Positions 1-31,321 are shown, counted from the stretch's first letter. The stretch is 31,321 nucleotides of DNA from Enhygromyxa sp. (GCA_046484755.1 JAWOII010000104.1:64001-95321); one strand, 5' to 3'. Numbers and translations are program-made. The notes: generated by a model from the letters alone, not told the origin.

Positions 1-87
1 CTCGCGGCCGAGCTCGAGCTCGCGCTCGGCTGCGGCGAGCCAGTCGCGATCGCTCAGGCGCCAGAGCCAGTGATCAGCGTCGAGCAT
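1..87 (-). CDS. Possible 5' end of a minus-strand gene running off the window (MLDADHWLWRLSDRDWLAAAERELELGRE...). The plus frame is also open here, so this is ambiguous.
   Basis: ATG at 87..85; open frame with GC-rich third positions to window start. Plus frame also open until TAG at 91-93. Confidence 0.25.
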   Translation of the reverse strand, partial: MLDADHWLWRLSDRDWLAAAERELELGRE

Positions 88-90
88 CGC

Positions 91-255
91 TAGCAGCCCG
101 TGGTGAAACCCATCGCGGCCCAGAGTGCGTCACTGGGGTTCGAGGCCGCGAAGCCAAAACGAAGTTGTATCGGGATACTACGAGCTTTTGGCGACAAAGG
201 CATCGGACGTCAGGGGCGTGCTCTGGGGTGCGAGGGGTTTCACCACGGGCTGCTA
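91..255. repeat. About 165-bp imperfect palindromic element. It has perfect 21-bp terminal inverted repeats (91-111 tagcagcccgtggtgaaaccc; 235-255 gggtttcaccacgggctgcta) and a nested 7-bp IR (GCCAAAA...TTTTGGC).
   Basis: Reverse complement of 91-111 equals 235-255 exactly. The interior is about 75% self-complementary and has lower GC. It lies just downstream of the minus-strand lipoprotein stop codon. Confidence 0.7.
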
Positions 256-885
256 GGGCTCGCCGTCGCCGTCACCATCACCGGTCGCATCGCCGTCGCC
301 GTCGCCGGTCGCATCGCCGTCGCCGTCGCCGGTCGCATCGCCGTCGCCGTCGCCGTCGCCGTCGCCATCACCGGTCGCATCGCCGTCGCCGTCGCCGGTC
401 GCATCGCCGTCGCCGTCGCCGGTCGCATCGCCATCGCCGTCGCCGGTCGCATCGCCATCGCCATCGCCGGTCGCATCGCCATCGCCATCGCCGGTCGCAT
501 CGCCATCGCCATCGCCGGTCGCATCGCCATCGCCATCGCCATCGCCATCGCCATCGCCATCGCCGGACTCATCGCCGGTCTCGTCGATCGGGAGGTCGCG
601 CTTGCTCGGCATGTCGTCGAAGATCGGCGGATCCCCGAGCCCGTCGTCATCGTCGGGCACGGTGTCGTCGGTCGTGCAGTAGCCGATCGCGAGGTTGGCG
701 GAGCACTCCCCGGGCGCGAGCACAGTGCTGCCCTCGACCACGCACACCAGCCCGTCGCGGCAGTCGGAGGCGCAGCGGCAGACCTCACCGTCCTTGGCCT
801 TGCAGCCGAAGCCGAGGGCGCCGAAGCAGAAGGCGAGCGCGAAGCCGAAGGCCGGGGCGAAGTGGCGCCGCATCAGTCGCATCAT
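253..885 (-). CDS. Lipoprotein. It has a lipobox signal peptide (LGFGC), a Cys-rich N-terminal module and a C-terminal tract of (ATGDGDGD)n acidic repeats.
   Basis: ATGATG start at 885/882 overlaps the greA TGA stop (translational coupling). The MMRLMRRHFAPAFGFALAFCFGALGFGC signal has Cys at +1. Stop is TAG at 255..253. Confidence 0.75.
   Translation of the reverse strand: MMRLMRRHFAPAFGFALAFCFGALGFGCKAKDGEVCRCASDCRDGLVCVVEGSTVLAPGECSANLAIGYCTTDDTVPDDDDGLGDPPIFDDMPSKRDLPIDETGDESGDGDGDGDGDGDGDATGDGDGDATGDGDGDATGDGDGDATGDGDGDATGDGDGDATGDGDGDATGDGDGDGDGDGDATGDGDGDATGDGDGDATGDGDGDGEP
256..566. repeat. Tandem 24-nt coding repeat (ggtcgcatcgccgtcgccgtcgcc and variants, ~12 copies) encoding (ATGDGDGD)n in the minus-strand lipoprotein.
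   Basis: Directly visible periodicity. The complementary-strand frames give the spurious RRRRSH / AMAMAM ORFs in the track. Confidence 0.9.
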
Positions 886-5057: not shown

Positions 5058-6653
5058 ATGGCCCTGATCGGTTCCATGACGGCGTCGGTCTGGTTGGCGC
5101 CGATGATCCCCAAGCTGCCGCTTCCGCTCGCGCAGCGGATCGATCGCTTGCTGCAGGCCAAGCCAGGACGTGAGACCGAAGCGCACGCGCTGAAGCTGTG
5201 CGAGGCGATCGTCGCCTACGCCGCCTGTGTGCGCGTGGCGGTGGCGGTGGCGGTGGTACCGGCCGCTCGGCGCTCGGCGCTGAGCAAGGCGGTCGATGAG
5301 CTTCGCAAAGTGGTCGAGCGCGGCGAGGCGAGGATCGCGAACTTTCGCGACCTGCTCGTCGCGGCCGCCAACGCGATCGAGGCGCTCGAGCCCGGGCACC
5401 CCCTCGGCCGGACCGAGCTGACCCGGCCGCGCACCGCCTGGGTCGCGCGCACGCAGCTGGTCGAGGCGCTCGGCGACAGCGTCGCAGTCGACGAGGCGAC
5501 CCGAAGTGGGGCGCTCGAGGGCGGGATCGCGGGGATCGTCGATCTGTGGGTCGCGCTAGTCGAGGCTCGGCACGAGGTCGAGATCGAGGCGCAGGGCGAT
5601 CCGTGGCTGCCCGCGCTCGGGGACGTGATCGTCGACATGCTCGGGGCCTCGGCGCTGCTCGGGGAGGCCTCGCTCACGCATCCCGAGCCGCTCGACGAGG
5701 GCGGCGTCGGCGAGCTGCGACGTCTGCACGGGCTCGAGGCCGAGCCCGACGACGAGCCGGCCCCGCGCGAGGCCTACGAGCCGGGCGTCGTGTGCTGGCG
5801 CTTCGATGATCAGGTGGTGTCCTCGTGCGGGCTGCTCGGCTACTGGGCCGACGAGCACGACTTCGATCACGTCGGCGTGATCGCTCGGCAGCGCCAGACC
5901 GCTGCCTCTCAGGCATCCCCGCCAGCACCGACCGTCGCTTCGCTTCCGTCGGTACACCCATGCCATCCCGGGGATGCCGAGTACCTCGACTACGGCTCCG
6001 GGTCGCGCTCACCGGCCACCGGCGCAGGCCAGGTGGCCTGGGATCGGCTCCGGGTCACGGCCGTCGAGGTCGAGCCCGAGCGGAGCGCCTCGCCGGTGTT
6101 CGTGCTCGTGGCCGCGGCGATCGCCTTGTTGCTGGTGATCGCCGGCGTCGCCTGGGCGCTGTGGCCAGTCTCTGACTCGGGCGAGCCCGGCCAAGCGACC
6201 GGGAGCTCGGGCCAGCCGATCGCGCGGACCCAGCAGACCAAGGCTCAGCCCGAGGAGCCCGGGCCCGATCCGGAGTCGGAGATCGTCATCGAGACCGAGC
6301 CGGAGCCCGAGACCTCCGCACATGGGCTGGGCGGGCGCTCGTCGGGCGCCGAAGGCGAGGAGCCGGAGACCGCCGAGGCCGAGCTTCCGAGCGCTTCGCT
6401 TTGGTTCGAGAGCGAGCGCAACCTCGGCACCTGCTCGGTCACCTACGACGGCCGGACCCGCAACGCGAACCTCCACCTCAAGACCAGGGCGCCCGAAGGA
6501 AAGCTGGAGTTTTCCTACCGCTGCGGCGAACATCGGGGGCGAGGGTCGATCGACGTCAAGCGCAACCGGGTCAACGGAGTGCTGTTTTGCAAGAAGAACG
6601 GAGCGGTCAAGGTGAAGACCGTACGCAGCAACGAGGGCCGCTGTGATCGTTGA
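5058..6653 (+). CDS. Hypothetical membrane protein. It has a ~290-aa cytoplasmic N-domain, one TM segment (VFVLVAAAIALLLVIAGVAWALW), an acidic EPE linker and a C-terminal Cys-containing beta-rich domain.
   Basis: 531-aa ORF with good GC3 except in the 5913-5979 inserted palindromic element. Its stop overlaps the start of the next gene (GTGATCGTTGA). Confidence 0.6.
   Translation: MALIGSMTASVWLAPMIPKLPLPLAQRIDRLLQAKPGRETEAHALKLCEAIVAYAACVRVAVAVAVVPAARRSALSKAVDELRKVVERGEARIANFRDLLVAAANAIEALEPGHPLGRTELTRPRTAWVARTQLVEALGDSVAVDEATRSGALEGGIAGIVDLWVALVEARHEVEIEAQGDPWLPALGDVIVDMLGASALLGEASLTHPEPLDEGGVGELRRLHGLEAEPDDEPAPREAYEPGVVCWRFDDQVVSSCGLLGYWADEHDFDHVGVIARQRQTAASQASPPAPTVASLPSVHPCHPGDAEYLDYGSGSRSPATGAGQVAWDRLRVTAVEVEPERSASPVFVLVAAAIALLLVIAGVAWALWPVSDSGEPGQATGSSGQPIARTQQTKAQPEEPGPDPESEIVIETEPEPETSAHGLGGRSSGAEGEEPETAEAELPSASLWFESERNLGTCSVTYDGRTRNANLHLKTRAPEGKLEFSYRCGEHRGRGSIDVKRNRVNGVLFCKKNGAVKVKTVRSNEGRCDR
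5913..5979. repeat. About 66-bp palindromic REP/RPE-like element (10-bp TIR GGCATCCCCG/CGGGGATGCC) embedded in-frame in the 5058 ORF. Its paralogue lies at 31233-31298.
   Basis: About 92% identity to 31233-31298. Perfect terminal inverted repeats. Low GC3 in the host frame. Confidence 0.7.
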
Positions 6654-7770
6654 GCTGATCCTGAGCGCGGCGCTGGTCCTCGGTCCGCCGATGGGCGCGA
6701 GCCCGGAGGGACCGGCCGCGCCCGAAGAGGGTGAGCTGGGCGATGGCGAGCCAGGGGAGGGTGAGCCGGTCGAGGGTGAGCCGGGCGAGGGCGAGCCGGT
6801 CGAGGGCGAGCCGGGCGAGGGCGAGTCGGGCGAGGGTGAGCCCGAGGAGGGTGAGGGTGAGCCCGGCGAGGGTGAGCCCGAGGAGGCGATCGACGTCGAG
6901 ACGGAGGCGATCGTCGAGGCCGCCTCCGAGGCCGTCCAGGATCGCGCGGTGCTCGAGCGCAACAACAAGGAGGTGCCCGAGTTCGTCCGCCACCTCGACG
7001 CGCTAGCGACCGTCGAGGGCCGGCTCGACACCTGCGGTAAGGCGGTCCAGGCCGAGGCGCGCATGGATCTCGCGCTCGCCTACCTGCGGGTCGCCGGCAC
7101 CTGCGACGCCAACGAGCTCACCGACGATCAGCTCCCGGAGCTCGAGTATCCCCGCGAGTGCGCCGGCGCGGCCACCCCCCACGACTGCGCGGCCTACCTG
7201 CTCGAGCGCGCGGCCGAGTTCGGCGACAGCGGGCCGGCCGGGGCCGAGGACCCGCTCGCCCAGGCCGCGGGCTGCCCTCACGCGGCCGAGTCGATGTCCG
7301 TCGAGCGCATGTTCGGCGGCTGCGTGGCGCAGGAGTACGAGGCCGCGGTCGAGCGCTGGCGCGCGAGCCAGGGACCCCCGGCGCCGATCGTCGACGGACC
7401 CCGTCGCATCAACCTCCCGGTCCCCCGCTGGGGCAGCATCCTCGGCGTCTCCCTCGGCGTCGGGGCGATCGCCGCGGGGGCGGCCCTGGTCGCGATCGAC
7501 GGGCGCTGCCCCGGCGGCCACGACCCGATGACGGACATCGAACAGTGCCCGAACGTCTACAACACCGACGCGGGCGGAGCCGTGCTGCTCAGCGTCGGCG
7601 CCCTCGCGGTGCTCAGCATGGGCGCGATCTTGACGATCACCGAGATCCAGAAGAAGCGGGGGCGAGGCAAGGCCAGCGAGGCCGCGCTGCGTCGGCGGAT
7701 GGACCGGGTCGCCGCGATCACTGGATGGCAAGCACCGCGCCTCCGACTTCGGCCCCAGCGCCGGCTTTGA
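6643..7770 (+). CDS. Hypothetical protein with N-terminal (GEPGEGEPVE)n acidic repeats, a Cys-containing middle domain and two C-terminal TM segments.
   Basis: GTG start at 6643, 8 nt before the upstream gene's stop. 375 aa. The 3' ~50 codons are Arg-rich and overlap the convergent lipoprotein gene, so the true end may be earlier. Confidence 0.55.
   Translation: MIVELILSAALVLGPPMGASPEGPAAPEEGELGDGEPGEGEPVEGEPGEGEPVEGEPGEGESGEGEPEEGEGEPGEGEPEEAIDVETEAIVEAASEAVQDRAVLERNNKEVPEFVRHLDALATVEGRLDTCGKAVQAEARMDLALAYLRVAGTCDANELTDDQLPELEYPRECAGAATPHDCAAYLLERAAEFGDSGPAGAEDPLAQAAGCPHAAESMSVERMFGGCVAQEYEAAVERWRASQGPPAPIVDGPRRINLPVPRWGSILGVSLGVGAIAAGAALVAIDGRCPGGHDPMTDIEQCPNVYNTDAGGAVLLSVGALAVLSMGAILTITEIQKKRGRGKASEAALRRRMDRVAAITGWQAPRLRLRPQRRL
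6726..6890. repeat. 18/36-nt tandem coding repeats (ggcgagggcgagccggtcgagggtgagccg) encoding GEPGEGEPVEGEP.
   Basis: Visible periodicity in the sequence. Confidence 0.85.
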
Positions 7771-8670
7771 AGCCGACTAGGGTGTAGTCGCAGGTGTAGG
7801 GCGGCTGGGCGTCGCACTCGACCCGGTAGCCGAGCTCGGGCACGCTCTGGTGGTTTAGCGCGTGGGCGCCGATCAGGTGGACGATCTGGTCGACGGTGCC
7901 GAGGGCGGTGAAGCCCTCGCTCAAGCCGGCGGCCGAGCTCACGGTGGCCCCGGCCGCGACCGCGAGCGCGCCCTCGGGCAGGTCGAAGGCGACGAGCTTG
8001 ACCCCGAGGGTCGCGTCGAGGCCCTCGGGCTGGGTTACGCAGTACTCGACGGTGGCTGCCTCGCCGACGCTGGCCGTGCGGGAGAACTCGAACACCGGGG
8101 CCTCGCCGGGCAAGTAGCGCTCGACCGTGTCGACGAAGAAGCGCCCGTCGAGCGCGGCGGTCGAGAGCTCGCCGCAGCCCTGCTCGGTGGTGATCTCCAG
8201 CTCGTGGATCTCGGGCGCGGGGAAGTCGTCCCCGAGGCCGATGACCACGGCCACGCCCGCGACCCGCGAGTTGGGGGCCGCGCCGCTGGTCTCGATCTCG
8301 ACACCCCAGCTGTCGCCCTCGTCGGTCCAGGCGATCGAATAGCCGAGGGTCTCGCTCTGACCGGGCTCGTAGCGGCGGACCGCGGCGATCGGGACCGAGA
8401 CCTGCTCGGCCGGCTTGGGGATCTGCGCGGTGAAGGTGTCGTTGCCCTGGAGCGAGAAGCTGATGAACTCGAGCCCGAGGCTGCACGCCGGCTCGCCGCA
8501 GCCGGGCGGCTCGCCGGTCTCGGTCGGATCGCCGTCGCCAGTCGGATCGCCGTCGCCGGTCGGCTCATCGGTGGTCCCGTCGGCGCCGGCCTCCTGCGCG
8601 TAGGGGTTGGGTTCGGTGCAGGCGAGCCCGCCACCGATCACGAGCGCAATGACCATCGACGAGCGTCGCA
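7718..8670 (-). CDS. Lipoprotein. It has signal VRRSSMVIALVIGGGLAC (lipobox LAC), an acidic TGDGDPTGDGDP linker and a ~270-aa beta-rich domain of unknown function.
   Basis: C-terminal ~315 aa of track ORF 7718..9667 has protein-like composition, whereas the upstream part is Arg-rich noise. Start is GTG 8670 or ATG 8655. Confidence 0.7.
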
Positions 8671-11356: not shown

Positions 11357-12574
11357 TCATCGTCGCGGACGCCGACGCAGGCCCAGCCCGAGCAGCCCGA
11401 GCAGCCCGAGCCCCGTGAGCGCTGAGCCGCCCGGCGCGCTCGAGCAGCTGCAGCCGACGTCGGCCTCCTCGCCGCCGATCGGCACGAAGCCGCCGCCGCC
11501 GGCCGTGGTCTCGGGCTCGTCGCCGTCGTCGGTGCCCGGCTCCCCGTCGCCCGGATCGCCGTCGCCCGGATCGCCGTCGCCGTCGCCCGGCTCCCCGTCG
11601 CCGTCCCCGGTGGCGTCGCACATGTCGACGCAGATCGGCACCTGCGTGGTCGTCTGCCCGCCGTCGAAGTCGTAGGCGGTGATCTCCAGCACCTGCGAGC
11701 CCGCAGGTAGCTCCACGTTGTTCCAGCGAAACGGCCAGTCCTCATCGACGACCGGCGGCGCGTCGAGGCCGACGACCGAGAGCTCGGCCGAGACCCCGCC
11801 GAAGTCGTCGATGATCTCGACGACCACGTCGAAGGGCCCGGACACCAGGGCGTCGACGGCCGGCTCGAGGACCACGAGCTCCGGGGGGCCGTCGTCGACC
11901 CGGGCGCCGTGGCGCGCGACCATCTCGGCGGTCCCGTTTTGCTGCCCGGCCGGGCACAGCTGATGGTTGCAGTTGGAGGTCCCGCTGACCGGCACGCAGC
12001 TGTCGCCGTACTTCAACCCGAAGTTCGAGTAGCTGCCCATGACCTGGCCCGAGACGCTCACGTTCTCCATCCCCCAGCTGTAGCCGAGCGCCCCGAGCAC
12101 CGAGAAGGCCACCCGGTGGGGGTCGAACCACTTGCTCTCGTCGAGGCAGCCCCAGAATAAAAAGCCGATCGACACCCCGTTGCCGTCATCGCAGTCGGCG
12201 ATCCCGACCTGCGGCGAGCAGGCCCCGCCGAAGGCCGAGGCGTGATCGCCCGCGTCGCCGAACACGATCATGTCGTAGGGCCCGACCGCCGGCCGCTCGA
12301 GGGTGAAGACCACGTCCCAGTAGACCGTGGTCTGCTTGAGCAGGTGGAGCAGCTCCTGCCGCTGCTCCTCGGTCGCGCCGTTCCAGCCGGCGAAGCTAGT
12401 CGGCGTGTAGCCGTTGACGCTGATCGTGTCGGCCGCCGGATCATTTTGATCGCCGGCGAGCACCGTGACCGGACCGGTGTTGATGTAGACCACGCGCTTG
12501 GCCTCGGCCCGGGCGGGCACGAGCGCGCAACAAAGGCCCGCGAGGGGGATGAGCAGGCGTCGCTTCGAAGTCAT
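11357..12574 (-). CDS. Secreted protein with N-terminal signal peptide, central domain, (GDGDGEPGDGDGDPGDGDP) acidic linker and C-terminal MYXO-CTERM-type sorting tail (GCSCSS…LTGLGLLGLLGLGLRRRPRR).
   Basis: 405-aa ORF. Signal MTSKRRLLIPLAGLCCALVPARAEA. The C-terminal Cys motif, hydrophobic helix and Arg cluster are the hallmark of the Myxococcales MYXO-CTERM signal. Confidence 0.75.
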   Translation of the reverse strand: MTSKRRLLIPLAGLCCALVPARAEAKRVVYINTGPVTVLAGDQNDPAADTISVNGYTPTSFAGWNGATEEQRQELLHLLKQTTVYWDVVFTLERPAVGPYDMIVFGDAGDHASAFGGACSPQVGIADCDDGNGVSIGFLFWGCLDESKWFDPHRVAFSVLGALGYSWGMENVSVSGQVMGSYSNFGLKYGDSCVPVSGTSNCNHQLCPAGQQNGTAEMVARHGARVDDGPPELVVLEPAVDALVSGPFDVVVEIIDDFGGVSAELSVVGLDAPPVVDEDWPFRWNNVELPAGSQVLEITAYDFDGGQTTTQVPICVDMCDATGDGDGEPGDGDGDPGDGDPGDGEPGTDDGDEPETTAGGGGFVPIGGEEADVGCSCSSAPGGSALTGLGLLGLLGLGLRRRPRR

Positions 12575-16801: not shown

Positions 16802-17812
16802 CTACTGCTGGACGCAGTACAGCCGCCGCGGCCACTGACACTGGGACATGGAGTTGTTGCTGATGAAGTTGCTCTCGTGGGTGGAGATGCCCGACCTGCC
16901 CGTCGCCGCGTCGGTCCCGATCGACCAGTTGTTGCAGTTCGAGTCGGACCGCCAGCTCGGGATCATGCCCGTCCAGACCCCGTTGCCGCTGTCGGGGCCG
17001 ATCGCGTGCTGGAGCGGCATGGCCTGGCCCATGGCGACGCCGAGCAGCGCCTCGTGGCCGGTGATCGCCAGCAGCTGGCCCTGGTCGTTGATGTAGTGGG
17101 TGAAGGGCTGGAGCACCCAGTCGACCTGGCCATCGCCGGCGAAGTCGGTGAGGGTCGCAACCCGGTTCACGCCGTCGGAGATCATCGCCCGGTAGCCGCC
17201 GGGGCACTTGCTGTCGGCGCCCGCGATGCCGCCGAGGTCGCCGCTGAAGGTCTCGAGGGTGATCAGGATCTCGCGCTGCTCGACGTAGCCGGAGCACTCC
17301 GGGTTGCAGTCGCCGAGGTTGATGCCGTTGTTGGGCCCTTCGTCGCAGACCTCACCCTCGCCGATCTGGCCGTCGCCGCACACGTTCGGCGGATCGCCGT
17401 CGCCGTCTCCGGTGTCGCCGTCGCCGTCACCAGAGTCGCCGTCACCGTCACCGGAGTCACCATCGCCATCGCCATCGCCATCGCCGTCGCCGGTATCGCC
17501 ATCGCCGTCACCGGAGTCGCCATCACCGTCACCGGAGTCGCCATCACCGTCACCGGTGCTCGGGTCGCCGTCGCCGTCGCCGGTCGCCGAGGTGTCGACG
17601 CACAGCCCCTGAACACACTCGTAGGTGCCGAAGCAAGTCAGGTTGGGCAGGCACTCACAGTCGACGCGGCCCGGCTCGCACGCGTCTCCGGTCTCGCTCG
17701 AGTCGTCGTTGCCGACTGGATCCGGATCCTCGAAGCAACCAACCAGGGCCCCGGCCGCGAACAGGCCCAGGGACGAGAGGAGCAAGGTCAGAGGACGAAG
17801 CTGCATGGGCAT
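16802..17812 (-). CDS. Lipoprotein (MPMQLRPLTLLLSSLGLFAAGALVGC). It has an N-terminal Cys-rich module, a (GDGDGDSGDGDGDT)n acidic repeat, a Myxococcus-type Cys-rich repeat (CGDGQIGEGEVCDEGPNNGINLGDCNPEC) and a C-terminal ~200-aa domain, possibly DUF1554-like.
   Basis: ATG 17812/17806 inside track ORF 16802..18145. Lipobox LVGC. The CxDGxxxxGExCDxGxxN…C module is typical of myxobacterial secreted proteins. Confidence 0.75.
   Translation of the reverse strand: MPMQLRPLTLLLSSLGLFAAGALVGCFEDPDPVGNDDSSETGDACEPGRVDCECLPNLTCFGTYECVQGLCVDTSATGDGDGDPSTGDGDGDSGDGDGDSGDGDGDTGDGDGDGDGDGDSGDGDGDSGDGDGDTGDGDGDPPNVCGDGQIGEGEVCDEGPNNGINLGDCNPECSGYVEQREILITLETFSGDLGGIAGADSKCPGGYRAMISDGVNRVATLTDFAGDGQVDWVLQPFTHYINDQGQLLAITGHEALLGVAMGQAMPLQHAIGPDSGNGVWTGMIPSWRSDSNCNNWSIGTDAATGRSGISTHESNFISNNSMSQCQWPRRLYCVQQ
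17395..17592. repeat. 18-nt tandem coding repeats encoding GDGDGD(S/T) in the 16802-17812 lipoprotein.
   Basis: Visible periodicity (tcgccgtcaccggagtcgccatcaccgtcacc…). Confidence 0.85.
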
Positions 17813-18132
17813 GGGAGGATGGTTACCACAACGGGCGAACGCCGAGGACTCCCAGCGACCCCCGAGCGAGGCCTGGTCGACCGGGCAGGGAGCTCGAACC
17901 CTCACATCGAGCCCTCCCCACGTCCGGGCTCGTGAGCCGAGCGAGAGATCAATCTGGGGCCAAGACGGTCTCGCGCAGATCGAGGCCCGCACCCACGGCG
18001 AGCGGGCCCCCTGCGAGGCCCAGAGCCGGGCCTGGCTCGTCGCAGGGGGTCGCGGACGAGCCCGAAAAAAGATCGAGGGCTCGAGCAAATAGTCTGCAAT
18101 CGCCCGATCGGCGGGCCGACAAGGCTTAGGCC

Positions 18133-19203
18133 ATGTCGTGGTCACCTCCGCAATGTCCCGAGTGCTCCTCCTTCTCCACCCGTTTCGAGCGCGTGATGCC
18201 CTTCGGCCCGCCCGACCTGTACGGCCTCTACTGGGAGTGCGAAAGCTGTCGCTCCCGGGTGCTCGAGCTGTGCCCGACCGGGGTCGACGATCCGCGGCCT
18301 GGCGGCTGCCTCAATTGCGGGGCAGCGGTCGACGCCAGCGGCCGCTGTCCGGACTGCGGCGTCGAGCGTCCGCAGCTGCTCGAGCGCGTGCACGCCCACT
18401 GCGGCTCGCCGCCGCAGCTCGACGCCGTCGAGGCGCTGATCGACCAGGGCCTGTTTCGCCTGGCCTTCAACACGGTCGACCTGTGCCTCGAGCAGCGGCC
18501 GGATGATCCGCCGGTCCTCGCCCTCAAGGCCAAGCTGCTGCTCGAGGTCCAGCGTCCGGAGCGGGCCGTGCCCCTGCTGCGCCGGGCGCTCGATCGGGGG
18601 CTCGACGAGCCTAGCGCTCGGATCAACTTCGGCATCGCGTTGTCACGCAGCGGCCGCCAGCAAGAGGCGATTCGTGTCTACCAAGATCACCTCGCTTGCG
18701 AGACCGAGCCCTCGTGTCGGGCGATCCTGCTTAGCAACATCGGTGGCTGCCTCAGCGCCCTCGGTCACACCAAGCAGGCCGAGGCCTATCACCGCCGGGC
18801 GATCGAAGCCGACCCCGAGCACCTCGGCCCGCGCTGGAACCTGTTCGCCAACTTGTTTGGTAGCCAGCAGTACGAGGGCGCCCTCGAGGTCGTCGAGCAG
18901 ACCATGGCGCTGTCCTTCCTCGAGCCGGACGAGCGCGAGAACCTGCAAGCCTACCGCTCGGAGGTCCTGATCTCCTTGCGTCGCTACCAAGACGCGCTCG
19001 CGGCCATCGACGCCAGCTTGGCCAGCGATCCTTGCGAGCTCAACCGGCTCGGGACCCGGGCCCGGATCCTGATCCACCTCGACGCCGTCGAAGCGGCCCG
19101 GGCCTGCATCGCGCAGATCCTCAGCCTCGATCCCAAGCACAAGATCGCTCTGCACCTGCTCGAGCGGCTCGATCGCCGGGCCGGGCCCGGGGCGCGGAAT
19201 TGA
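18133..19203 (+). CDS. Protein with two N-terminal zinc-ribbon motifs (CPEC…CESC; CLNC…CPDC) followed by tetratricopeptide (TPR) repeats.
   Basis: 356-aa ORF. Four CxxC pairs in the first 80 aa. TPR-like 34-aa helical repeats (AEAYHRRAIEADPEH…). Stop TGA is inside the palindrome TGATCA, shared with the convergent gene. Confidence 0.7.
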   Translation: MSWSPPQCPECSSFSTRFERVMPFGPPDLYGLYWECESCRSRVLELCPTGVDDPRPGGCLNCGAAVDASGRCPDCGVERPQLLERVHAHCGSPPQLDAVEALIDQGLFRLAFNTVDLCLEQRPDDPPVLALKAKLLLEVQRPERAVPLLRRALDRGLDEPSARINFGIALSRSGRQQEAIRVYQDHLACETEPSCRAILLSNIGGCLSALGHTKQAEAYHRRAIEADPEHLGPRWNLFANLFGSQQYEGALEVVEQTMALSFLEPDERENLQAYRSEVLISLRRYQDALAAIDASLASDPCELNRLGTRARILIHLDAVEAARACIAQILSLDPKHKIALHLLERLDRRAGPGARN

Positions 19204-27634: not shown

Positions 27635-28852
27635 TCAGGGCTCAATCGAGCCGGCTCCGCCCCCCTGCGGCGGGTCGTAGCGGTTGAGGACCAGCTTGAG
27701 CACGCCGAGCCACATGTCGGTCTCGATCGCCAGGAGCAGCCGGCGCTCGTCTTGGGTCAGGTAGGCCCGGAAGGTGAACTTGCGCTTGTCCTCGCGGACG
27801 ACCCCGTAGCGATCGACCCGCGAGAGCGTGCCTTCGAGCAGGTGCACGTCATCGGGCTTGACGCCGAGGCCCTGCGCGACGCTCGGCAGCGGATCGAGCT
27901 TGGCGCGGCCGCGGCCGACGACCTCGACCTTGAGCAGGATCCGGCCGTCGAGCACGTGGGCCGTGGCCTTCTCCCCCTCGGCGAGGTCGAGGGAGCGAAC
28001 CCAGGCCATCGCCGACAGCGGATCAAACGTATCGCGCGGGACCTGCTGGGTCACCTTGGTGGTCTTTTGGTCCCGGGCGTCGACGATGCGGATGTGGCCC
28101 CGGCCCTCGAAGTCGGTCTCGGTCACCCGCCGCTTGTACTTGCCCGAGGTGCCGAGCCCGGCGCGCTCGAGGATGTTGACGCTCGACACCACCGCGCCCG
28201 TGCCTGCGTCGACCCAGGTGATCATCCGGTCTTCCATGGACGAGAGCAGCGAGACCACCCCGGAGGTCACGGCGCGGCCCTCGAGCCGATACTTGCCGCT
28301 GCCTTGCGGGGCCTCACCCCGAGGATCGGACTGGTACTCCACGACCCCAGCCTCGGCGAGCCCGGCCGGGTTGCCGGCGAAGAACACGTCGAACACGAAG
28401 CGCTCGCCGACCCGCAGCGCCCAGGCGTAGGGCGGGGGGACCGGGGCGGCGGGCAGGCGCCGGCGCCGGTCGTTGAACTCGGGCTCCTCGAGGGCGGCCG
28501 ACCAGCCGATCAGCGGCTCGGGGCTGGGCTTGGGCGTGGTCTGGACCGTGGGGCTGGAGATCCGCGGGACTCGGCTGGCGTCGCCGCGGGTCGTCCGACG
28601 GCGCGGGCGCTCGTCGGTGGTCCCGCGTCGCTCGGCTTTGACCCGCGCCTCCTCGCGCGCCTGGTGGGCGATCCGAACCTGGTCGCGCTTGGGCCCGGCC
28701 GCCGAGGCGGGGGAGCCGAGCAGCGTGATCAGCAGCGCCGCGGGGATCAAGCGAGAGGCGGAGGCCAAGCGAGAGGCGCAGTGGGAGCGAAGGAACCGCG
28801 GGTCCCGAGTCTCTTGGCTGCGCCGAAGCGAGATGACGGAGGTCAGCGCCAT
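27635..28852 (-). CDS. Exported hypothetical protein, possibly DUF3108-like, with signal/TM LIPAALLITLLGSPASAAG.
   Basis: ATG 28852 inside track ORF 27635..29617. The upstream part of that ORF is Ser/Arg-rich noise. The family call is a weak recollection only. Confidence 0.5.
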   Translation of the reverse strand: MALTSVISLRRSQETRDPRFLRSHCASRLASASRLIPAALLITLLGSPASAAGPKRDQVRIAHQAREEARVKAERRGTTDERPRRRTTRGDASRVPRISSPTVQTTPKPSPEPLIGWSAALEEPEFNDRRRRLPAAPVPPPYAWALRVGERFVFDVFFAGNPAGLAEAGVVEYQSDPRGEAPQGSGKYRLEGRAVTSGVVSLLSSMEDRMITWVDAGTGAVVSSVNILERAGLGTSGKYKRRVTETDFEGRGHIRIVDARDQKTTKVTQQVPRDTFDPLSAMAWVRSLDLAEGEKATAHVLDGRILLKVEVVGRGRAKLDPLPSVAQGLGVKPDDVHLLEGTLSRVDRYGVVREDKRKFTFRAYLTQDERRLLLAIETDMWLGVLKLVLNRYDPPQGGGAGSIEP

Positions 28853-28868
28853 GCGTCGCAATGTTAGA

Positions 28869-29885
28869 ATGCCAGCCCGCTTTGCGCACCGCCGCGCGTT
28901 CGAAGCTGTGACACGGCTCGTCATCACCCAAGGAGACCCGGCCGGCATCGGCCCCGAGCTGCTCTTGCGCATCGCCAACGAGGGGGTGCTCGACGCGGAC
29001 GACGTGGTCGTCGCGGACCGCGGGGTCCTGCGGGAGCTGGCCGCCAAGCTCGCGGCCCCGTGGGCGAGGGCAGGGCTCGAGCGGATCCTCGATAGGGAGG
29101 GGGCGCTCGATCCGGGCTTTGGATCGGGCGGGCAGTTCGCGGCCCTCGAGCGGGGCGTCGATCTCGTGCTCGCCGAGCCCGATCCCGCGCGCCGCCCCGC
29201 GCTGGTCACCGCCCCGATCGACAAGGCCGTGGCCAGCCGCGAGGGCCTGCGCCACCCCGGCCACACCGAGTACCTAGCCGAGCGCGCGGGGGTCGAGGAC
29301 TTCGCCATGCTGATGGCCGGGCCGACGATCCGGGTGGTGCTCGCGACCATCCACGTCCCCCTGCGCGAGGTCCCGCGGCGCCTCGACGAGGCCGCGATCC
29401 TCCGGGCCGGCTCGCTGCTCGCCGAGGCGCTGGTCCGCGACTTCGGGATCCCGGCCCCGCGAATCGGCGTGCTCGGCCTCAACCCCCACGCCGGCGAGGG
29501 CGGGCTGCTCGGCGACGAAGAGCTGCGGGTGATCGCCCCGGCGATCGAGCGGCTGCGCGCGTGGTCGGCCGCGCGGCAGCTCGCCGCCGAGTTTCGCGGC
29601 CCGCTGCCGGCCGACACCGCCTTTCACCACCACCGCGTCGGCGAGCTCGACGGCGTGGTCGCGATGTACCACGACCAGGGCCTCGGCCCCTTCAAGCTCG
29701 CCCACTTCTACGACGGCGTGAACGTGACCCTCGGGCTGCCCTTCGTGCGGACCTCGCCCGATCACGGCACCGCCAAGGACATCGCCGGCCGCGGCCTCGC
29801 CGATCCGGCCAGCCTGCTCGCGGCGATCCGGCTCGCGCGATCGATGGCCGCGCGTCGGGCAGGAGCTCCAGATGACAGCGGCTGA
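28869..29885 (+). CDS. pdxA: 4-hydroxythreonine-4-phosphate dehydrogenase PdxA
   Basis: ITQGDPAGIGPE motif and PdxA-like length. The start is either ATG 28869 (MPARFAHRR) or the in-frame ATG 28851. The latter overlaps the divergent gene's ATG in a CATG tetramer. Confidence 0.85.
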   Translation: MPARFAHRRAFEAVTRLVITQGDPAGIGPELLLRIANEGVLDADDVVVADRGVLRELAAKLAAPWARAGLERILDREGALDPGFGSGGQFAALERGVDLVLAEPDPARRPALVTAPIDKAVASREGLRHPGHTEYLAERAGVEDFAMLMAGPTIRVVLATIHVPLREVPRRLDEAAILRAGSLLAEALVRDFGIPAPRIGVLGLNPHAGEGGLLGDEELRVIAPAIERLRAWSAARQLAAEFRGPLPADTAFHHHRVGELDGVVAMYHDQGLGPFKLAHFYDGVNVTLGLPFVRTSPDHGTAKDIAGRGLADPASLLAAIRLARSMAARRAGAPDDSG

Positions 29886-31321
29886 GGAAAGGATCCCCCC
29901 CGGGGGTCAGCACGAGCGGCCGCGGTCGACGGGCCCCGAGCGAGGGAAGCGAGCTGCGCAAACCCAGACGGTCGCGGCGGGCAGGAAGATCCGGATCCGC
30001 GGAGCCCGGACCCACAACCTCCGCGACCTCGATCTCGACCTCCCCCGCGACAAGCTGATCGTGGTCACCGGCCCCTCGGGCTCGGGCAAGAGCAGCCTCG
30101 CCTTCGACACGATCTTCGCCGAGGGCCAGCGCCGCTACGTCGAGAGCCTCAGCGCCTCGGCCCGGCAGTTCCTCGCCCAGCTGCCCAAGCCCGACGCCGA
30201 CCTGATCGAGGGCCTGAGCCCGACCATCGCGCTCTCGCAGGAGAACCGGGCCCGAAACCCGCGCTCGACCGTCGGCACCACCACCGAGGTCTATGACTAC
30301 CTGCGGCTGTTGTTCGCCCGGATCGGCGAGGTCTACAGCTGGCGCAGCGGCCAGCCGATGCGGCGCCACACCGTCGAGGAGATGGTCGACGCGATCGAGG
30401 CCCTGCCGCCGCGCAGCAAGTTCTCGGTCATCGCCCCGGTGGTCCGCGGCGCGCCCGGGGATCACCGCGAGCTGCTCGAGGATCTGCGCCGGCAGGGCTT
30501 CGTGCGGGTCGCGATCGACGATCAGCTGCGCGACCTCGACGAGGACATCAGCCTCGACCCCGACGCGCGCCACAGCGTCGAGGTCTACGTCGATCGCCTG
30601 GTGCTCAAGCCCGGGATCCGCTCGCGCCTCGCCCAGTCGATCGAGCTGGCCCTGCAGGTCGCCGAGGGCCGCGTCACGATCCTCCCGCTCGAGGGTGAGC
30701 CGCTCGAGTTCGCCGAGCGCTACACCGACTTCGAGCACGGCCTGAGCTACCCGGAGATCACCCCGGGCCTGTTCTCCTTCAACAGCCCCGAGGGCGCCTG
30801 CCCGACTTGCGGCGGCCTCGGCCACCGGCGGGTGATCGACCCCCGGCGGCTGATCCCCGATCCACGCAAGAGCATCAAGGAGGGCGCGCTCGCGGGGCTC
30901 GGCCGGGCCGCGTCCAGCCTCGAGCGCCAGCTCGCCGCGCTCGCGGCCCACCTCGACATCGATCTCTACGCCCCCTGGGAGGAGCTCGACGAACTCGACC
31001 GCCTGACGATCCTCCACGGCAGCGGCGACCGGCTGATCCCGCCGCTCGACGAGGACCAGCCGGCCAGGCCCAAGCCCGGGACCAAGGCCAACAAGCAGGC
31101 CAAGAAAAAGTCCAAGAAACAGACCAAGAAAAAGCTCGAGCAGCAGCCCAGGCGAGCCGAGGCCGAGCGAGGCGAGCCCTTCCCCGGCGTGATCCCCCTG
31201 CTCGAGCAGCGCCTGCTCGAGAGCGTCTCCGGGTCTCCCCGCCAGCACCGACCGTCCGCTTCGCGTCCTTCGGTACACCCATCCCATCCCGGGGAGACGG
31301 GGAGCCGGGTCGACGCCGATC
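29872..31321 (+). CDS. uvrA: Excinuclease ABC subunit A (UvrA), 5'-partial, running off the window end. It carries a Lys-rich insertion and a ~66-bp palindromic element in the region equivalent to E. coli residues ~360-390.
   Basis: Not in the ORF track because it has no stop. I read the frame from ATG 29872, which overlaps the pdxA stop. Matches UvrA: [62 protein letters not shown] … [18 protein letters not shown]. Confidence 0.85.
31233..31298. repeat. Second copy of the ~66-bp palindromic element (TIR GTCTCCCCG/CGGGGAGAC), in-frame inside uvrA.
   Basis: About 92% identical to 5913-5979. GC3 drops relative to flanking uvrA codons. Confidence 0.7.

What the first reader, a model, noticed from the sequence alone, without database searches (positions are those of the whole stretch)
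31233..31321. uvrA interrupted by the palindromic element at a conserved position
UvrA homology is clear up to …LLESVSGS. In E. coli this stretch is followed by …[23 protein letters not shown]. Here the following sequence is the low-GC3 inserted element ([23 protein letters not shown]). It is unclear whether the second Cys pair of the zinc module is replaced or merely displaced downstream beyond the window. Either UvrA tolerates an in-frame insertion in its insertion domain, or this uvrA copy is degenerating. Myxobacteria carry uvrA paralogues.
Basis: partly seen in the sequence, partly recalled or inferred. Interest (0 to 1): 0.5.

Follow-up and report, generated by a model that had tools for sequence, protein, structure and literature searches.

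The report
Frame-neutral palindromic repeat inside uvrA
A 75-base hairpin-forming repeat sits in frame, without stop codons, in a naturally variable linker of the DNA-repair gene uvrA of a marine myxobacterium (Enhygromyxa MAG); the same repeat sits in frame in at least six other genes, much like the 'protein-coding palindromes' of Rickettsia, and the gene only looks cut off because the assembled contig ends 16 bases later.

Summary
The uvrA frame (29872 to 31321, +) runs at codon 452 into a copy of a dispersed imperfect palindrome (31225-31305). A second copy lies at 5907-5978 inside another gene. The interpretation needs correcting on three points.

- **Contig end.** The window end is also the contig end. 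The exact protein is NCBI 'partial' MFO7563690.1 from an Enhygromyxa MAG, so the missing second Cys pair cannot be seen.
- **Site.** The insertion site is a length-variable acidic linker, not a conserved position.
- **Frame.** The last five codons, RVDAD, resume UvrA homology (RADAD in the closest relative). The net insert is exactly 25 codons relative to two orthologues.

The repeat is a family. Copies occur in frame in Fpg/Nei, a DnaE-type PHP domain, nicotinamidase-NUDIX, AmpG, a GNAT and two hypothetical proteins, in all three phases and both orientations. It has a 75-nt unit, no stop codon in any of six frames, and no codon-position GC bias. Relatives show empty sites.

The best reading is an intact canonical uvrA carrying a tolerated, translated insertion like a Rickettsia palindromic element (RPE), not a decaying paralogue. 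The downstream half, the mobilising enzyme and actual translation remain unshown. I found no description of such elements in Myxococcota.

The parts
29872..31321 (+). 5' part of canonical (class I) uvrA, 483 codons. It is cut by the end of the contig, not only by the end of the window.
   Evidence: Translation. Pfam UvrA_inter 1e-32 and UvrA_DNA-bind 2e-19. PDB 2r6f E=4e-117. Identical to NCBI MFO7563690.1, 'partial', on a 95,321-nt contig. Orthologue locus L001 shows the same DUF3108-pdxA-uvrA synteny.
31225..31305 (+). Element copy B by its widest boundaries (81 nt, codons 452-478). The net insertion relative to orthologues is 75 nt.
   Evidence: nhmmer E=1e-22. Absent from P0121 and P0002/L001 at this place. 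G+C by codon position 0.70/0.74/0.70 against 0.72/0.47/0.94 in the gene.
31233..31241 (+). Left arm of the outer stem of copy B (GTCTCCCCG).
   Evidence: Pairs with 31290-31298 (CGGGGAGAC): fold, pair counts.
31290..31298 (+). Right arm of the outer stem of copy B (CGGGGAGAC).
31247..31274 (+). Inner hairpin of copy B (ACCGA ... TCGGT around an 18-nt loop).
   Evidence: The stem is 5-7 bp long in the six copies.
31306..31321 (+). uvrA resumes in frame after the element (R V D A D plus one base); the contig then ends.
   Evidence: Matches RADAD (P0121) and RADGS (P0002) at the corresponding place. A match of at least 4 of 5 residues to RADAD occurs at 2.6e-4 of six-frame positions in the window.
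31042..31179 (+). Lys-rich lineage-specific segment of the UvrA insertion domain ([46 protein letters not shown]). It is context, not part of the element.
   Evidence: GC3 is 0.89, so it is codon-adapted. Shorter K-rich counterparts occur in P0002 and P0121. Pfam and PDB alignments break here.
5907..5978 (+). Element copy A (TCTCAGG + GGCATCCCCG ... CGGGGATGCC), in frame inside ORF 5058-6653.
   Evidence: The homologues P0248, P0249 and P0261 lack it. The DNA empty site in L076 gives a net +75 nt.
5058..6653 (+). Host gene of copy A: conserved hypothetical protein (NCBI MFO7563666.1, R6X02_13545).
   Evidence: 16 relatives among the representatives; the best is 75% identical with E=1.6e-232. 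GC3 is 0.87-0.90.
28473..29885 (+). pdxA directly upstream of uvrA (a synteny marker). The mechanical ORF probably starts too early.
   Evidence: Pfam PdxA 7e-87. Same gene order in L001.

Best explanation
The window ends in the canonical class-I uvrA of an Enhygromyxa MAG. A copy of a small non-autonomous palindromic repeat has inserted between codons 451 and 479. The site is the acidic, length-variable linker that joins the last helix of the insertion domain to the second Cys pair of zinc module 2.

The repeat unit is 75 nt (25 codons) and has no stop codon in any of its six reading frames. An insertion in any phase and either orientation therefore leaves the host frame intact and simply adds about 25 residues rich in Pro, Ser, Gly, Arg and His.

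Shown:
- The repeat family exists, with its hairpin anatomy.
- It occurs in frame in eight host genes.
- Relatives have empty sites.
- The net insert is +25 codons.
- The uvrA frame resumes after the element.

Inferred:
- The insert is translated as a flexible surface loop and UvrA stays functional.
- The element is, or recently was, mobilised in trans by an unidentified enzyme that recognises its 9-10 bp terminal inverted repeat or hairpin.
- The rest of uvrA exists in the genome but was not assembled onto this contig.
For: - **Second copy.** A copy in the window is 93% identical.
- **Other host proteins.** A six-frame peptide search found the element inside other annotated proteins. Three are from the same MAG: Fpg/Nei MFO7564361.1, PHP-domain MFO7562888.1 and hypothetical MFO7563666.1. 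Four are from JGI or ENA metagenomes: nicotinamidase-NUDIX, AmpG, a GNAT and a DUF6265-like protein.
- **DNA copies.** The six DNA copies align at 82% mean column identity over 97 columns. winA and L019 have identical 58-nt cores.
- **Host proteins continue on both sides.** P0245 against PDB 2wt9 aligns residues 4-99 and 132-234 around the insert. P0242 against 8tjg aligns 1-150 and 188-300. The window ORF 5058-6653 against P0248/P0249/P0261 shows the same.
- **Empty site at DNA level.** L076 gives a net +75 nt.
- **UvrA.** Between QRLx and R[AV]D the relatives P0121 and P0002 have 4 residues and the window has 29, a net +25 codons, and RVDAD is equivalent to RADAD.
- **Unit length.** The tandem pair in P0246 has a 25-aa period.
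- **Open frames.** No stop codon in six frames.
- **Composition.** No codon-position GC periodicity inside the element.
- **Hairpin.** The outer stem is 95% paired, with two pairs changed on both sides.
- **uvrA is the orthologue.** Synteny and class-I domains support this.
- **Predicted structure.** In a weak AF2 model the helix 440-452 is followed by coil at pLDDT below 30 over 452-483.
Against: - The contig ends 16 nt after the element, so only five codons show that the frame resumes. The second Cys pair and the whole C-terminal ABC module are unseen.
- Copy B carries two 1-nt insertions relative to the other copies. The '75 nt' in uvrA therefore rests on comparison with orthologues across a linker that itself varies in length.
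- Element boundaries and any target-site duplication could not be fixed.
- No transposase lies in the window and none was linked to the element.
- Covariation is weak with six sequences: 29 of 500 shuffles reach the observed score.
- Folding energy exceeds shuffled controls in only 2 of 6 copies.
- The copies were found through a protein database, so the sample is biased towards copies inside called ORFs. Two hosts carry the element at a protein end (P0243 C-terminus, P0244 N-terminus), where 'in frame' means little.
- Translation and UvrA function are untested.
Confidence: 0.8

Rival explanations
1. This uvrA is a decaying copy or a dispensable paralogue that was knocked out by the element, and it is truncated or frameshifted downstream.
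For: The gene cannot be followed past codon 483. Zinc module 1 cysteines are absent. NCBI names the product only 'hypothetical protein, partial'.
Against: There is no stop or frameshift in 483 codons, and GC3 is 0.94 up to the junction. Walker A, the UvrB-binding domain, the insertion domain and the first CxxC of zinc module 2 are intact. The gene lies in the conserved DUF3108-pdxA-uvrA locus. Loss of zinc module 1 cysteines is shared by all Nannocystaceae-type orthologues, so it is a clade trait. The frame and the homology resume after the element. Other hosts of the element are clearly intact.
Confidence: 0.08
2. Assembly artefact: the assembler joined uvrA to a repeat copy from elsewhere at a contig end, and the real gene has no insertion.
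For: The contig ends 16 nt after the repeat. A second protein of the same MAG (PHP domain, MFO7562888.1) also ends at a contig end inside a tandem pair of the element. This shows that the repeat coincides with assembly breaks.
Against: The element is flanked on both sides by uvrA sequence: LLES before it and RVDAD after it, in frame. Copy B is unique in sequence, with two private 1-nt insertions and private substitutions, so it is not a collapsed consensus. Internal copies elsewhere (5907-5978, L019, L020) are assembled cleanly within genes.
Confidence: 0.05
3. The segment is a native, lineage-specific part of the UvrA linker, and its resemblance to 5907-5978 is convergent or due to gene conversion.
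For: The linker is highly variable and carries other lineage-specific inserts such as the K-rich segment.
Against: Copies in eight unrelated genes are 90-100% identical at the nucleotide level, in three phases and both orientations, so the encoded peptides differ. The segment is absent from the closest UvrA relatives. It shows no codon-position GC bias.
Confidence: 0.02
4. The element is removed or acts at the RNA level (a mini-intron, ribozyme, processing site or regulatory hairpin), so it never appears in the protein.
For: The hairpin is conserved and has compensatory changes in its outer stem. The nucleotide sequence is conserved, not the peptide.
Against: No Rfam family matches at E<=1 over four element-bearing loci. 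No U-tract follows the stem, as the sequence shows directly. A unit of 3n that is free of stops in six frames is what translation would select for and is not needed for an excised RNA. No self-splicing RNA of this size is known to me (my own knowledge).
Confidence: 0.04

Closest known systems
Rickettsia palindromic elements (RPE), the 'protein-coding palindromes' of Ogata et al. 2000 and 2002. Described in PMC1779305 and in the MITE review PMC10969869.
   Same: Both are dispersed short palindromic repeats found inside unrelated protein-coding genes. They are inserted in frame, so the host protein continues on both sides. They are lineage-restricted and absent from orthologues of relatives, and no transposase is encoded.
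   Different: RPEs are 100-150 bp and live in AT-rich obligate intracellular Alphaproteobacteria; according to the review each RPE encodes a conserved peptide. The element here is 75 nt, about 70% G+C, and found in a free-living marine myxobacterium. It is used in all three phases and in reverse, so no single peptide is conserved. I did not test sequence similarity to RPE families, and membership is not claimed.
Bacterial MITEs that occasionally make in-frame fusions (intragenic ERIC, BOX, Anabaena MITEs and others; review PMC10969869).
   Same: Small size, terminal inverted repeats (9-10 bp here), no coding capacity for a transposase, multiple near-identical copies, and empty sites in relatives.
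   Different: No clear target-site duplication and no parent insertion sequence with matching ends could be identified. The conserved 5' TCTCAGG has no inverted partner at the 3' end.
REP/BIME elements mobilised by RAYT (Y1) transposases, and the GTAG- or CGTC-tagged palindromes (PMC3733652, PMC2817692).
   Same: An imperfect palindrome with a conserved asymmetric 'head' next to the stem; tandem arrangement is possible, as in P0246.
   Different: REPs are 20-40 nt and by definition extragenic. No GTAG tag is present here, and no RAYT gene was seen in the 31 kb window.
Class I UvrA (Geobacillus stearothermophilus 2r6f, M. tuberculosis 3zqj, T. maritima 3pih).
   Same: N-terminal Walker A, UvrB-binding domain, insertion domain and the first CxxC of zinc module 2.
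   Different: This clade lacks the zinc module 1 cysteines, and it has a K-rich insert and a long acidic linker in the insertion domain. This genome additionally carries the 25-codon element.

Membership tests
UvrA, class I (canonical excinuclease ABC subunit A) | N-terminal ABC ATPase Walker A (GxSGSGKSS) and conserved neighbouring motifs | tested here: met
   [28 protein letters not shown] is invariant in alignment A2. The PDB 2r6f alignment covers residues 39-387.
UvrA, class I (canonical excinuclease ABC subunit A) | UvrB-binding domain present (absent in class II UvrA2) | tested here: met
   Pfam PF17760 UvrA_inter, E=1.2e-32, residues 167-271.
UvrA, class I (canonical excinuclease ABC subunit A) | Insertion (DNA-binding) domain flanked by the two Cys pairs of zinc module 2 | tested here: inconclusive
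   PF17755 matches residues 323-389, profile positions 1-68 of 110. The first pair, C310/C313, is present. The second pair lies beyond the contig end.
UvrA, class I (canonical excinuclease ABC subunit A) | Second ABC module and C-terminal zinc finger | not testable with these tools
   The contig ends at codon 483. No continuation was found. That search listed only short proteins, so the absence is not conclusive.
UvrA, class I (canonical excinuclease ABC subunit A) | Zinc module 1 cysteines flanking the UvrB-binding domain | tested here: not met
   EVYSWRSGQ and [10 protein letters not shown] replace the Cys-bearing motifs. The same is true in all Nannocystaceae-type orthologues P0002-P0008. 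This is a clade trait, not decay of this copy.
RPE-like protein-coding palindromic repeats (behaviour, not homology) | Dispersed repeat with several near-identical copies | tested here: met
   There are eight host loci. Five belong to the MAG counting the tandem pair, and the rest come from three JGI samples and one ENA sample.
RPE-like protein-coding palindromic repeats (behaviour, not homology) | Palindromic, able to form a hairpin | tested here: met
   9-10 bp outer stem plus 5-7 bp inner stem; 92% of cells are paired against 27-56% when partners are slid; two pairs are changed on both sides. Statistical support is modest (29/500 shuffles).
RPE-like protein-coding palindromic repeats (behaviour, not homology) | Inserted in frame in unrelated conserved proteins that continue on both sides; orthologues lack it | tested here: met
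   hypothetical protein, +75 nt; nicotinamidase; Fpg/Nei; UvrA, +25 codons; central region of AmpG.
RPE-like protein-coding palindromic repeats (behaviour, not homology) | Sequence homology to a described RPE family | not tested
   No RPE models were available. The size (75 against 100-150 bp), the base composition and the host phylum differ, so membership is not claimed.
MITE | Terminal inverted repeats, small size, no transposase ORF | tested here: met
   GG(C/T)(C/A)TCCCCG ... CGGGGA(G/T)(G/A)CC; unit of 75 nt.
MITE | Target-site duplication and a parent insertion sequence with the same ends | tested here: inconclusive
   Flanks show only short, inconsistent direct repeats: GCC in copy A, AGC in copy B, TCTC(A/G)GG in L020.
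REP / RAYT system | 20-40 nt extragenic palindrome with a GTAG or CGTC tag, and an associated RAYT gene | tested here: not met
   The element is 75 nt and all known copies lie within called ORFs; there is no GTAG, and CGTC occurs only inside the inner stem. No Y1 transposase domain was found in the window ORFs.
Described RNA families (Rfam 15) | Match to a covariance model | tested here: not met
   No hit at element positions at E<=1 in L019, L020, L021 or L023.

The most novel reading that the evidence does not exclude
A free-living, high-GC myxobacterial lineage (Enhygromyxa and relatives) carries its own family of 'protein-coding palindromes'. This is a 75-nt mobile hairpin whose length (3n) and lack of stop codons in all six frames make every insertion frame-neutral. 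That lets it colonise and persist, as translated 25-residue loops, in housekeeping genes including DNA repair and replication genes (uvrA, fpg/nei, dnaE). It would be an independent origin of the phenomenon once described as unique to Rickettsia.
Probability: 0.55. Interest if true: 0.6.

Novelty: new member of a known kind. Interest (0 to 1): 0.5.

Why it matters
For the finding itself, the apparent 'interruption' of uvrA is most likely neither a pseudogene nor a replaced zinc module. It is a tolerated insertion, followed by an assembly break. Annotators should not call this gene, or the similarly cut dnaE-type PHP gene, defective.

More generally, in-frame colonisation of essential genes by selfish palindromes has been treated as a Rickettsia peculiarity linked to reductive evolution. 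A compact analogue in a large-genome, free-living predator would have three consequences:
- It would show that the strategy (3n length, stop-free in six frames, landing in loops) arises independently.
- It would give a natural map of insertion-tolerant sites in UvrA, Fpg/Nei, PncA and AmpG.
- It would warn that such repeats fragment MAG assemblies inside genes.

Tried and rejected
1. **Extending the sequence.** The exact protein P0001 is not in the gene-position index, and neither are the other MAG proteins P0242 and P0246. A search with the region of orthologue P0002 downstream of the insertion site (ending near the end of its first ABC module) found no continuation from this MAG. That tool listed only short proteins, so the absence is weak evidence.
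2. **GTDB representative genomes.** A scan with the left 19-mer CCCCGCCAGCACCGACCGT gave 17 single hits in unrelated taxa. All are chance matches limited to the 19-mer. The source MAG is not among the representatives, and the family is not evident in any representative genome.
3. **JGI metagenome collection.** The 24-base right block gave 0 hits. A two-block gapped pattern gave 52 hits, all chance. The JGI samples that do hold the element (3300078353, 3300078363, 3300078497) are evidently not in that collection.
4. **Plasmid collection.** No match.
5. **Rfam.** No family.
6. **Further diverged copies.** A six-copy profile found none in the window or the related loci.
7. **Literature.** Nothing on such elements in myxobacteria in the held library. 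Ogata 2002 (PMC186582) is not held.
8. **Considered and rejected.** An intein is excluded because the peptide differs by frame and is 25 aa long. An intrinsic terminator is excluded because there is no T-run. A CRISPR or tandem coding repeat is excluded because the copies are dispersed in unrelated genes.
9. **Structure model.** The AF2 model of the 483-aa fragment is poor overall (pLDDT 64, pTM 0.38). I used it only to note that the insert is predicted as coil.

Full report
**What is at 31233-31321.**
The + strand frame that opens at 29872 translates as UvrA for 451 codons.
- It has the Walker A motif, the UvrB-binding domain (Pfam PF17760, E=1e-32) and the first two thirds of the insertion/DNA-binding domain (PF17755).
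- Its best solved relative is Geobacillus UvrA 2r6f (E=4e-117, residues 39-387).
- After ...[18 protein letters not shown] (nt 31224) the frame reads [27 protein letters not shown] (31225-31305), then RVDAD (31306-31320), and the sequence stops.
The boundary needs a small change: VSGS already belongs to the inserted element.
- The 'low GC3' remark is also correct. G+C by codon position is 0.72/0.47/0.94 in uvrA upstream and 0.70/0.74/0.70 inside the segment.

**The sequence stops because the contig stops.**
- A protein identical over all 483 residues is in NCBI as 'MAG: hypothetical protein R6X02_13665, partial [Enhygromyxa sp.]' (MFO7563690.1), on a contig of 95,321 nt.
- I could not find the other half. 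The MAG is not in the gene-position index and is not among the GTDB representatives.
- A search with the part of orthologue P0002 downstream of the insertion site returned no fragment from this MAG. That search listed only short proteins, so I treat its silence as weak evidence.

**The 'palindromic element' is a real repeat family.**
- 31236-31295 matches 5916-5974 at 93% over 60 nt (E=5e-18). A two-copy profile finds exactly these two places in the window (E about 1e-22).
- The second copy lies inside ORF 5058-6653 (NCBI MFO7563666.1).
- I translated both copies in six frames (none has a stop within the element) and searched the joined peptides against the protein collection. This returned the two window proteins and six others.

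| Protein | Host | Source | Position of the element |
|---|---|---|---|
| P0242 | Fpg/Nei glycosylase | same MAG | internal |
| P0246 | PHP-domain (DnaE-type) protein, 'partial' | same MAG | ends at a contig end inside a tandem pair of the element |
| P0245 | nicotinamidase-NUDIX | JGI | internal |
| P0247 | AmpG-type MFS transporter | JGI | internal, reverse orientation |
| P0243 | GNAT | ENA | C-terminus |
| P0244 | DUF6265-like protein | JGI | N-terminus |

- The MAG proteins have neighbouring accession numbers, so they come from one assembly.
- DNA was recovered for the JGI and ENA copies. All of those contigs are 69-70% G+C, like the window.
- The 58-nt core of copy A is identical to that of the nicotinamidase copy.
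- The forward copies use all three phases: ...SVHP.HPG..., ...FASVGTPMPSRG... and ...RYTHAIPG.... What is conserved is therefore the DNA, not a peptide.

**Anatomy.**
- From 5' to 3' the element has a conserved head TCTC(A/G/C)GG, a 9-10 bp outer stem (GG[C/T][C/A]TCCCCG ... CGGGGA[G/T][G/A]CC), 5 unpaired bases, and an inner hairpin (ACCGAC(C) ... (G)GTCGGT around a 12-18 nt loop). An invariant 15-nt unpaired stretch (ACACCCAT.CCATC) precedes the right arm.
- Across six copies 92% of cells pair, against 27-56% when partners are slid. Two outer-stem pairs change on both sides (CG/UA, CG/AU).
- With six sequences this is only suggestive: 29 of 500 shuffles do as well. Folding energy beats shuffles in only two copies.
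- There is no T-run after the stem, and no Rfam family matches.

**It is an insertion, and the unit is 75 nt.**
- For copy A the homologues P0248 (75% identical), P0249 and P0261 read ...HVGVIARQ[QDR]-(G)A-(A)EYLDYG..., where the window has 27 extra-looking residues.
- At the DNA level the homologous JGI contig L076 is collinear on both sides, and the window has a net +75 nt.
- The tandem pair in P0246 has a 25-residue period.
- In UvrA the two closest relatives have four residues between QRLx and R[AV]D: P0121 reads ...LLEQRLLDAESRADADPEHG...EVRCSACEGQRL, and P0002 reads ...LLEQRLRELETRADGSEGEG...VRCSLCEGQRL. The window has 29, again a net +25 codons.
- The nicotinamidase and the Fpg/Nei protein align to solved structures on both sides of an extra segment of about 24-27 residues.
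- A 75-nt unit with six open frames leaves the host frame unchanged whatever the phase or orientation of insertion. That explains why the copies seen in genes are all 'in frame'.

**The uvrA context.**
- The gene is the orthologue, not a stray paralogue. The order DUF3108-pdxA-uvrA is the same in the locus of P0002 (74% identical), and the domain set is class I.
- The insertion site is not conserved. Between the helix ...LLEQRL.E and the helix that leads to the second Cys pair, the orthologues carry an acidic linker of very different lengths. It is essentially absent in Geobacillus and about 20 residues in Labilithrix and P0002.
- Upstream, the same domain holds a Lys-rich, codon-adapted insert specific to this clade (31042-31179).
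- After the element the five visible codons, RVDAD, match RADAD. A match this good occurs at 2.6e-4 of six-frame positions in the window.
- A low-quality AF2 model of the fragment puts a helix at 440-452 and coil at pLDDT below 30 over 452-483.

**Best explanation and rivals.**
- I conclude with about 0.8 confidence that this is an intact canonical uvrA with a tolerated, translated 25-codon insertion of a selfish palindromic repeat, cut short by an assembly break.
- The rivals are a decaying gene (0.08), an assembly chimera (0.05), an RNA-level element that is removed from the transcript (0.04) and a native linker segment (0.02).
- Each has specific evidence against it, listed in its own section. 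None can be closed completely without the downstream sequence.
- I cannot explain why the contig ends 16 nt beyond the repeat rather than within it. The other contig-end case involves a tandem pair, so a second copy or a coverage drop just downstream is possible.

**Comparison with known systems.**
- In behaviour this matches the Rickettsia palindromic elements. Those are 100-150 bp repeats abundant in intergenic and coding regions, inserted in frame in unrelated genes and compatible with the host fold (PMC1779305; PMC10969869).
- It is not shown to be homologous to them and it differs in size, composition, host and phase usage.
- It also meets the loose definition of a MITE (terminal inverted repeats, small size, non-coding). 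I could not establish a target-site duplication or a parent element.
- It fails the REP definition (size, extragenic location, GTAG tag).
- Literature searches found nothing on such elements in myxobacteria. Pattern scans of GTDB representatives, the JGI contig collection and plasmids found only chance matches. The family therefore appears to be narrow: this MAG and close relatives in a few samples.

**Verdict.**
I rate it a new member of a known kind (an RPE-like, in-frame palindromic repeat) in a phylum where none has been described as far as I could find, with moderate interest (0.5).

Noticed in passing
window 31042-31179: The UvrA insertion domain carries a Lys-rich segment ([35 protein letters not shown]). 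It has normal GC3 (0.89), and shorter K-rich counterparts occur in the closest relatives (P0002, P0121). It is absent from Geobacillus and E. coli UvrA and may be a lineage-specific DNA-contacting tail.
   Followed up: partly
window 30328-30354 and 30724-30747: The cysteines of UvrA zinc module 1, which flank the UvrB-binding domain, are replaced (EVYSWRSGQ; TDFEHGLS). All Nannocystaceae-type orthologues in alignment A2 show the same replacement, whereas Polyangiaceae and Labilithrix sequences keep some Cys.
   Followed up: partly
protein P0246 (NCBI MFO7562888.1, same MAG), C-terminus: A DnaE-type PHP-domain protein ends at a contig end inside two tandem copies of the element (VSGLPASTDPRFASVGTPMPSRGGQ|VSGLPASTDPRFA, 25-aa period). 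This is a second gene of the MAG whose assembly breaks at this repeat.
   Followed up: partly
window 5916-5973 and L019:2163-2220: The 58-nt cores of copy A (MAG) and of the nicotinamidase copy (JGI sample 3300078363) are identical, although the host genes and the organisms differ. In that same sample the homologue of the window ORF (L076) has an empty site.
   Followed up: partly
eight host loci: Seven of the eight known copies have the same orientation relative to the host gene's coding strand, and only AmpG carries the reverse. Three of the eight hosts are DNA repair or replication proteins (UvrA, Fpg/Nei, DnaE-PHP). The sample is too small and too biased to judge either pattern.
   Followed up: no
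window 230-630, also 8493-8588, 11504-11636 and 17346-17609: Long runs of GTCGCC/ATCGCC-type repeats with 12/24-nt and 21-nt periods. On the minus strand they would encode Asp/Gly-rich repeats. One run lies in an ORF with a DUF1554 domain (16802-18310, minus strand).
   Followed up: no
window 6705-6905: A 15-nt tandem repeat (GAGCC.G..GAGGG.) encoding (E-G-E-P-x)n at the start of ORF 6643-7770, which has no Pfam match.
   Followed up: no
window 77-147 and 199-269: An inverted repeat with 71-nt arms, 76% complementary and 51 nt apart, at the very start of the window next to the Asp/Gly repeat region.
   Followed up: no
protein P0003 (Nannocystaceae UvrA, 833 aa): Its C-terminal part turns into an Arg/Pro/Ser/Ala-rich sequence after ...IDQSPIGRSPRSNP in alignment A2. 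This looks like a frameshift in that MAG's uvrA or in its assembly.
   Followed up: no
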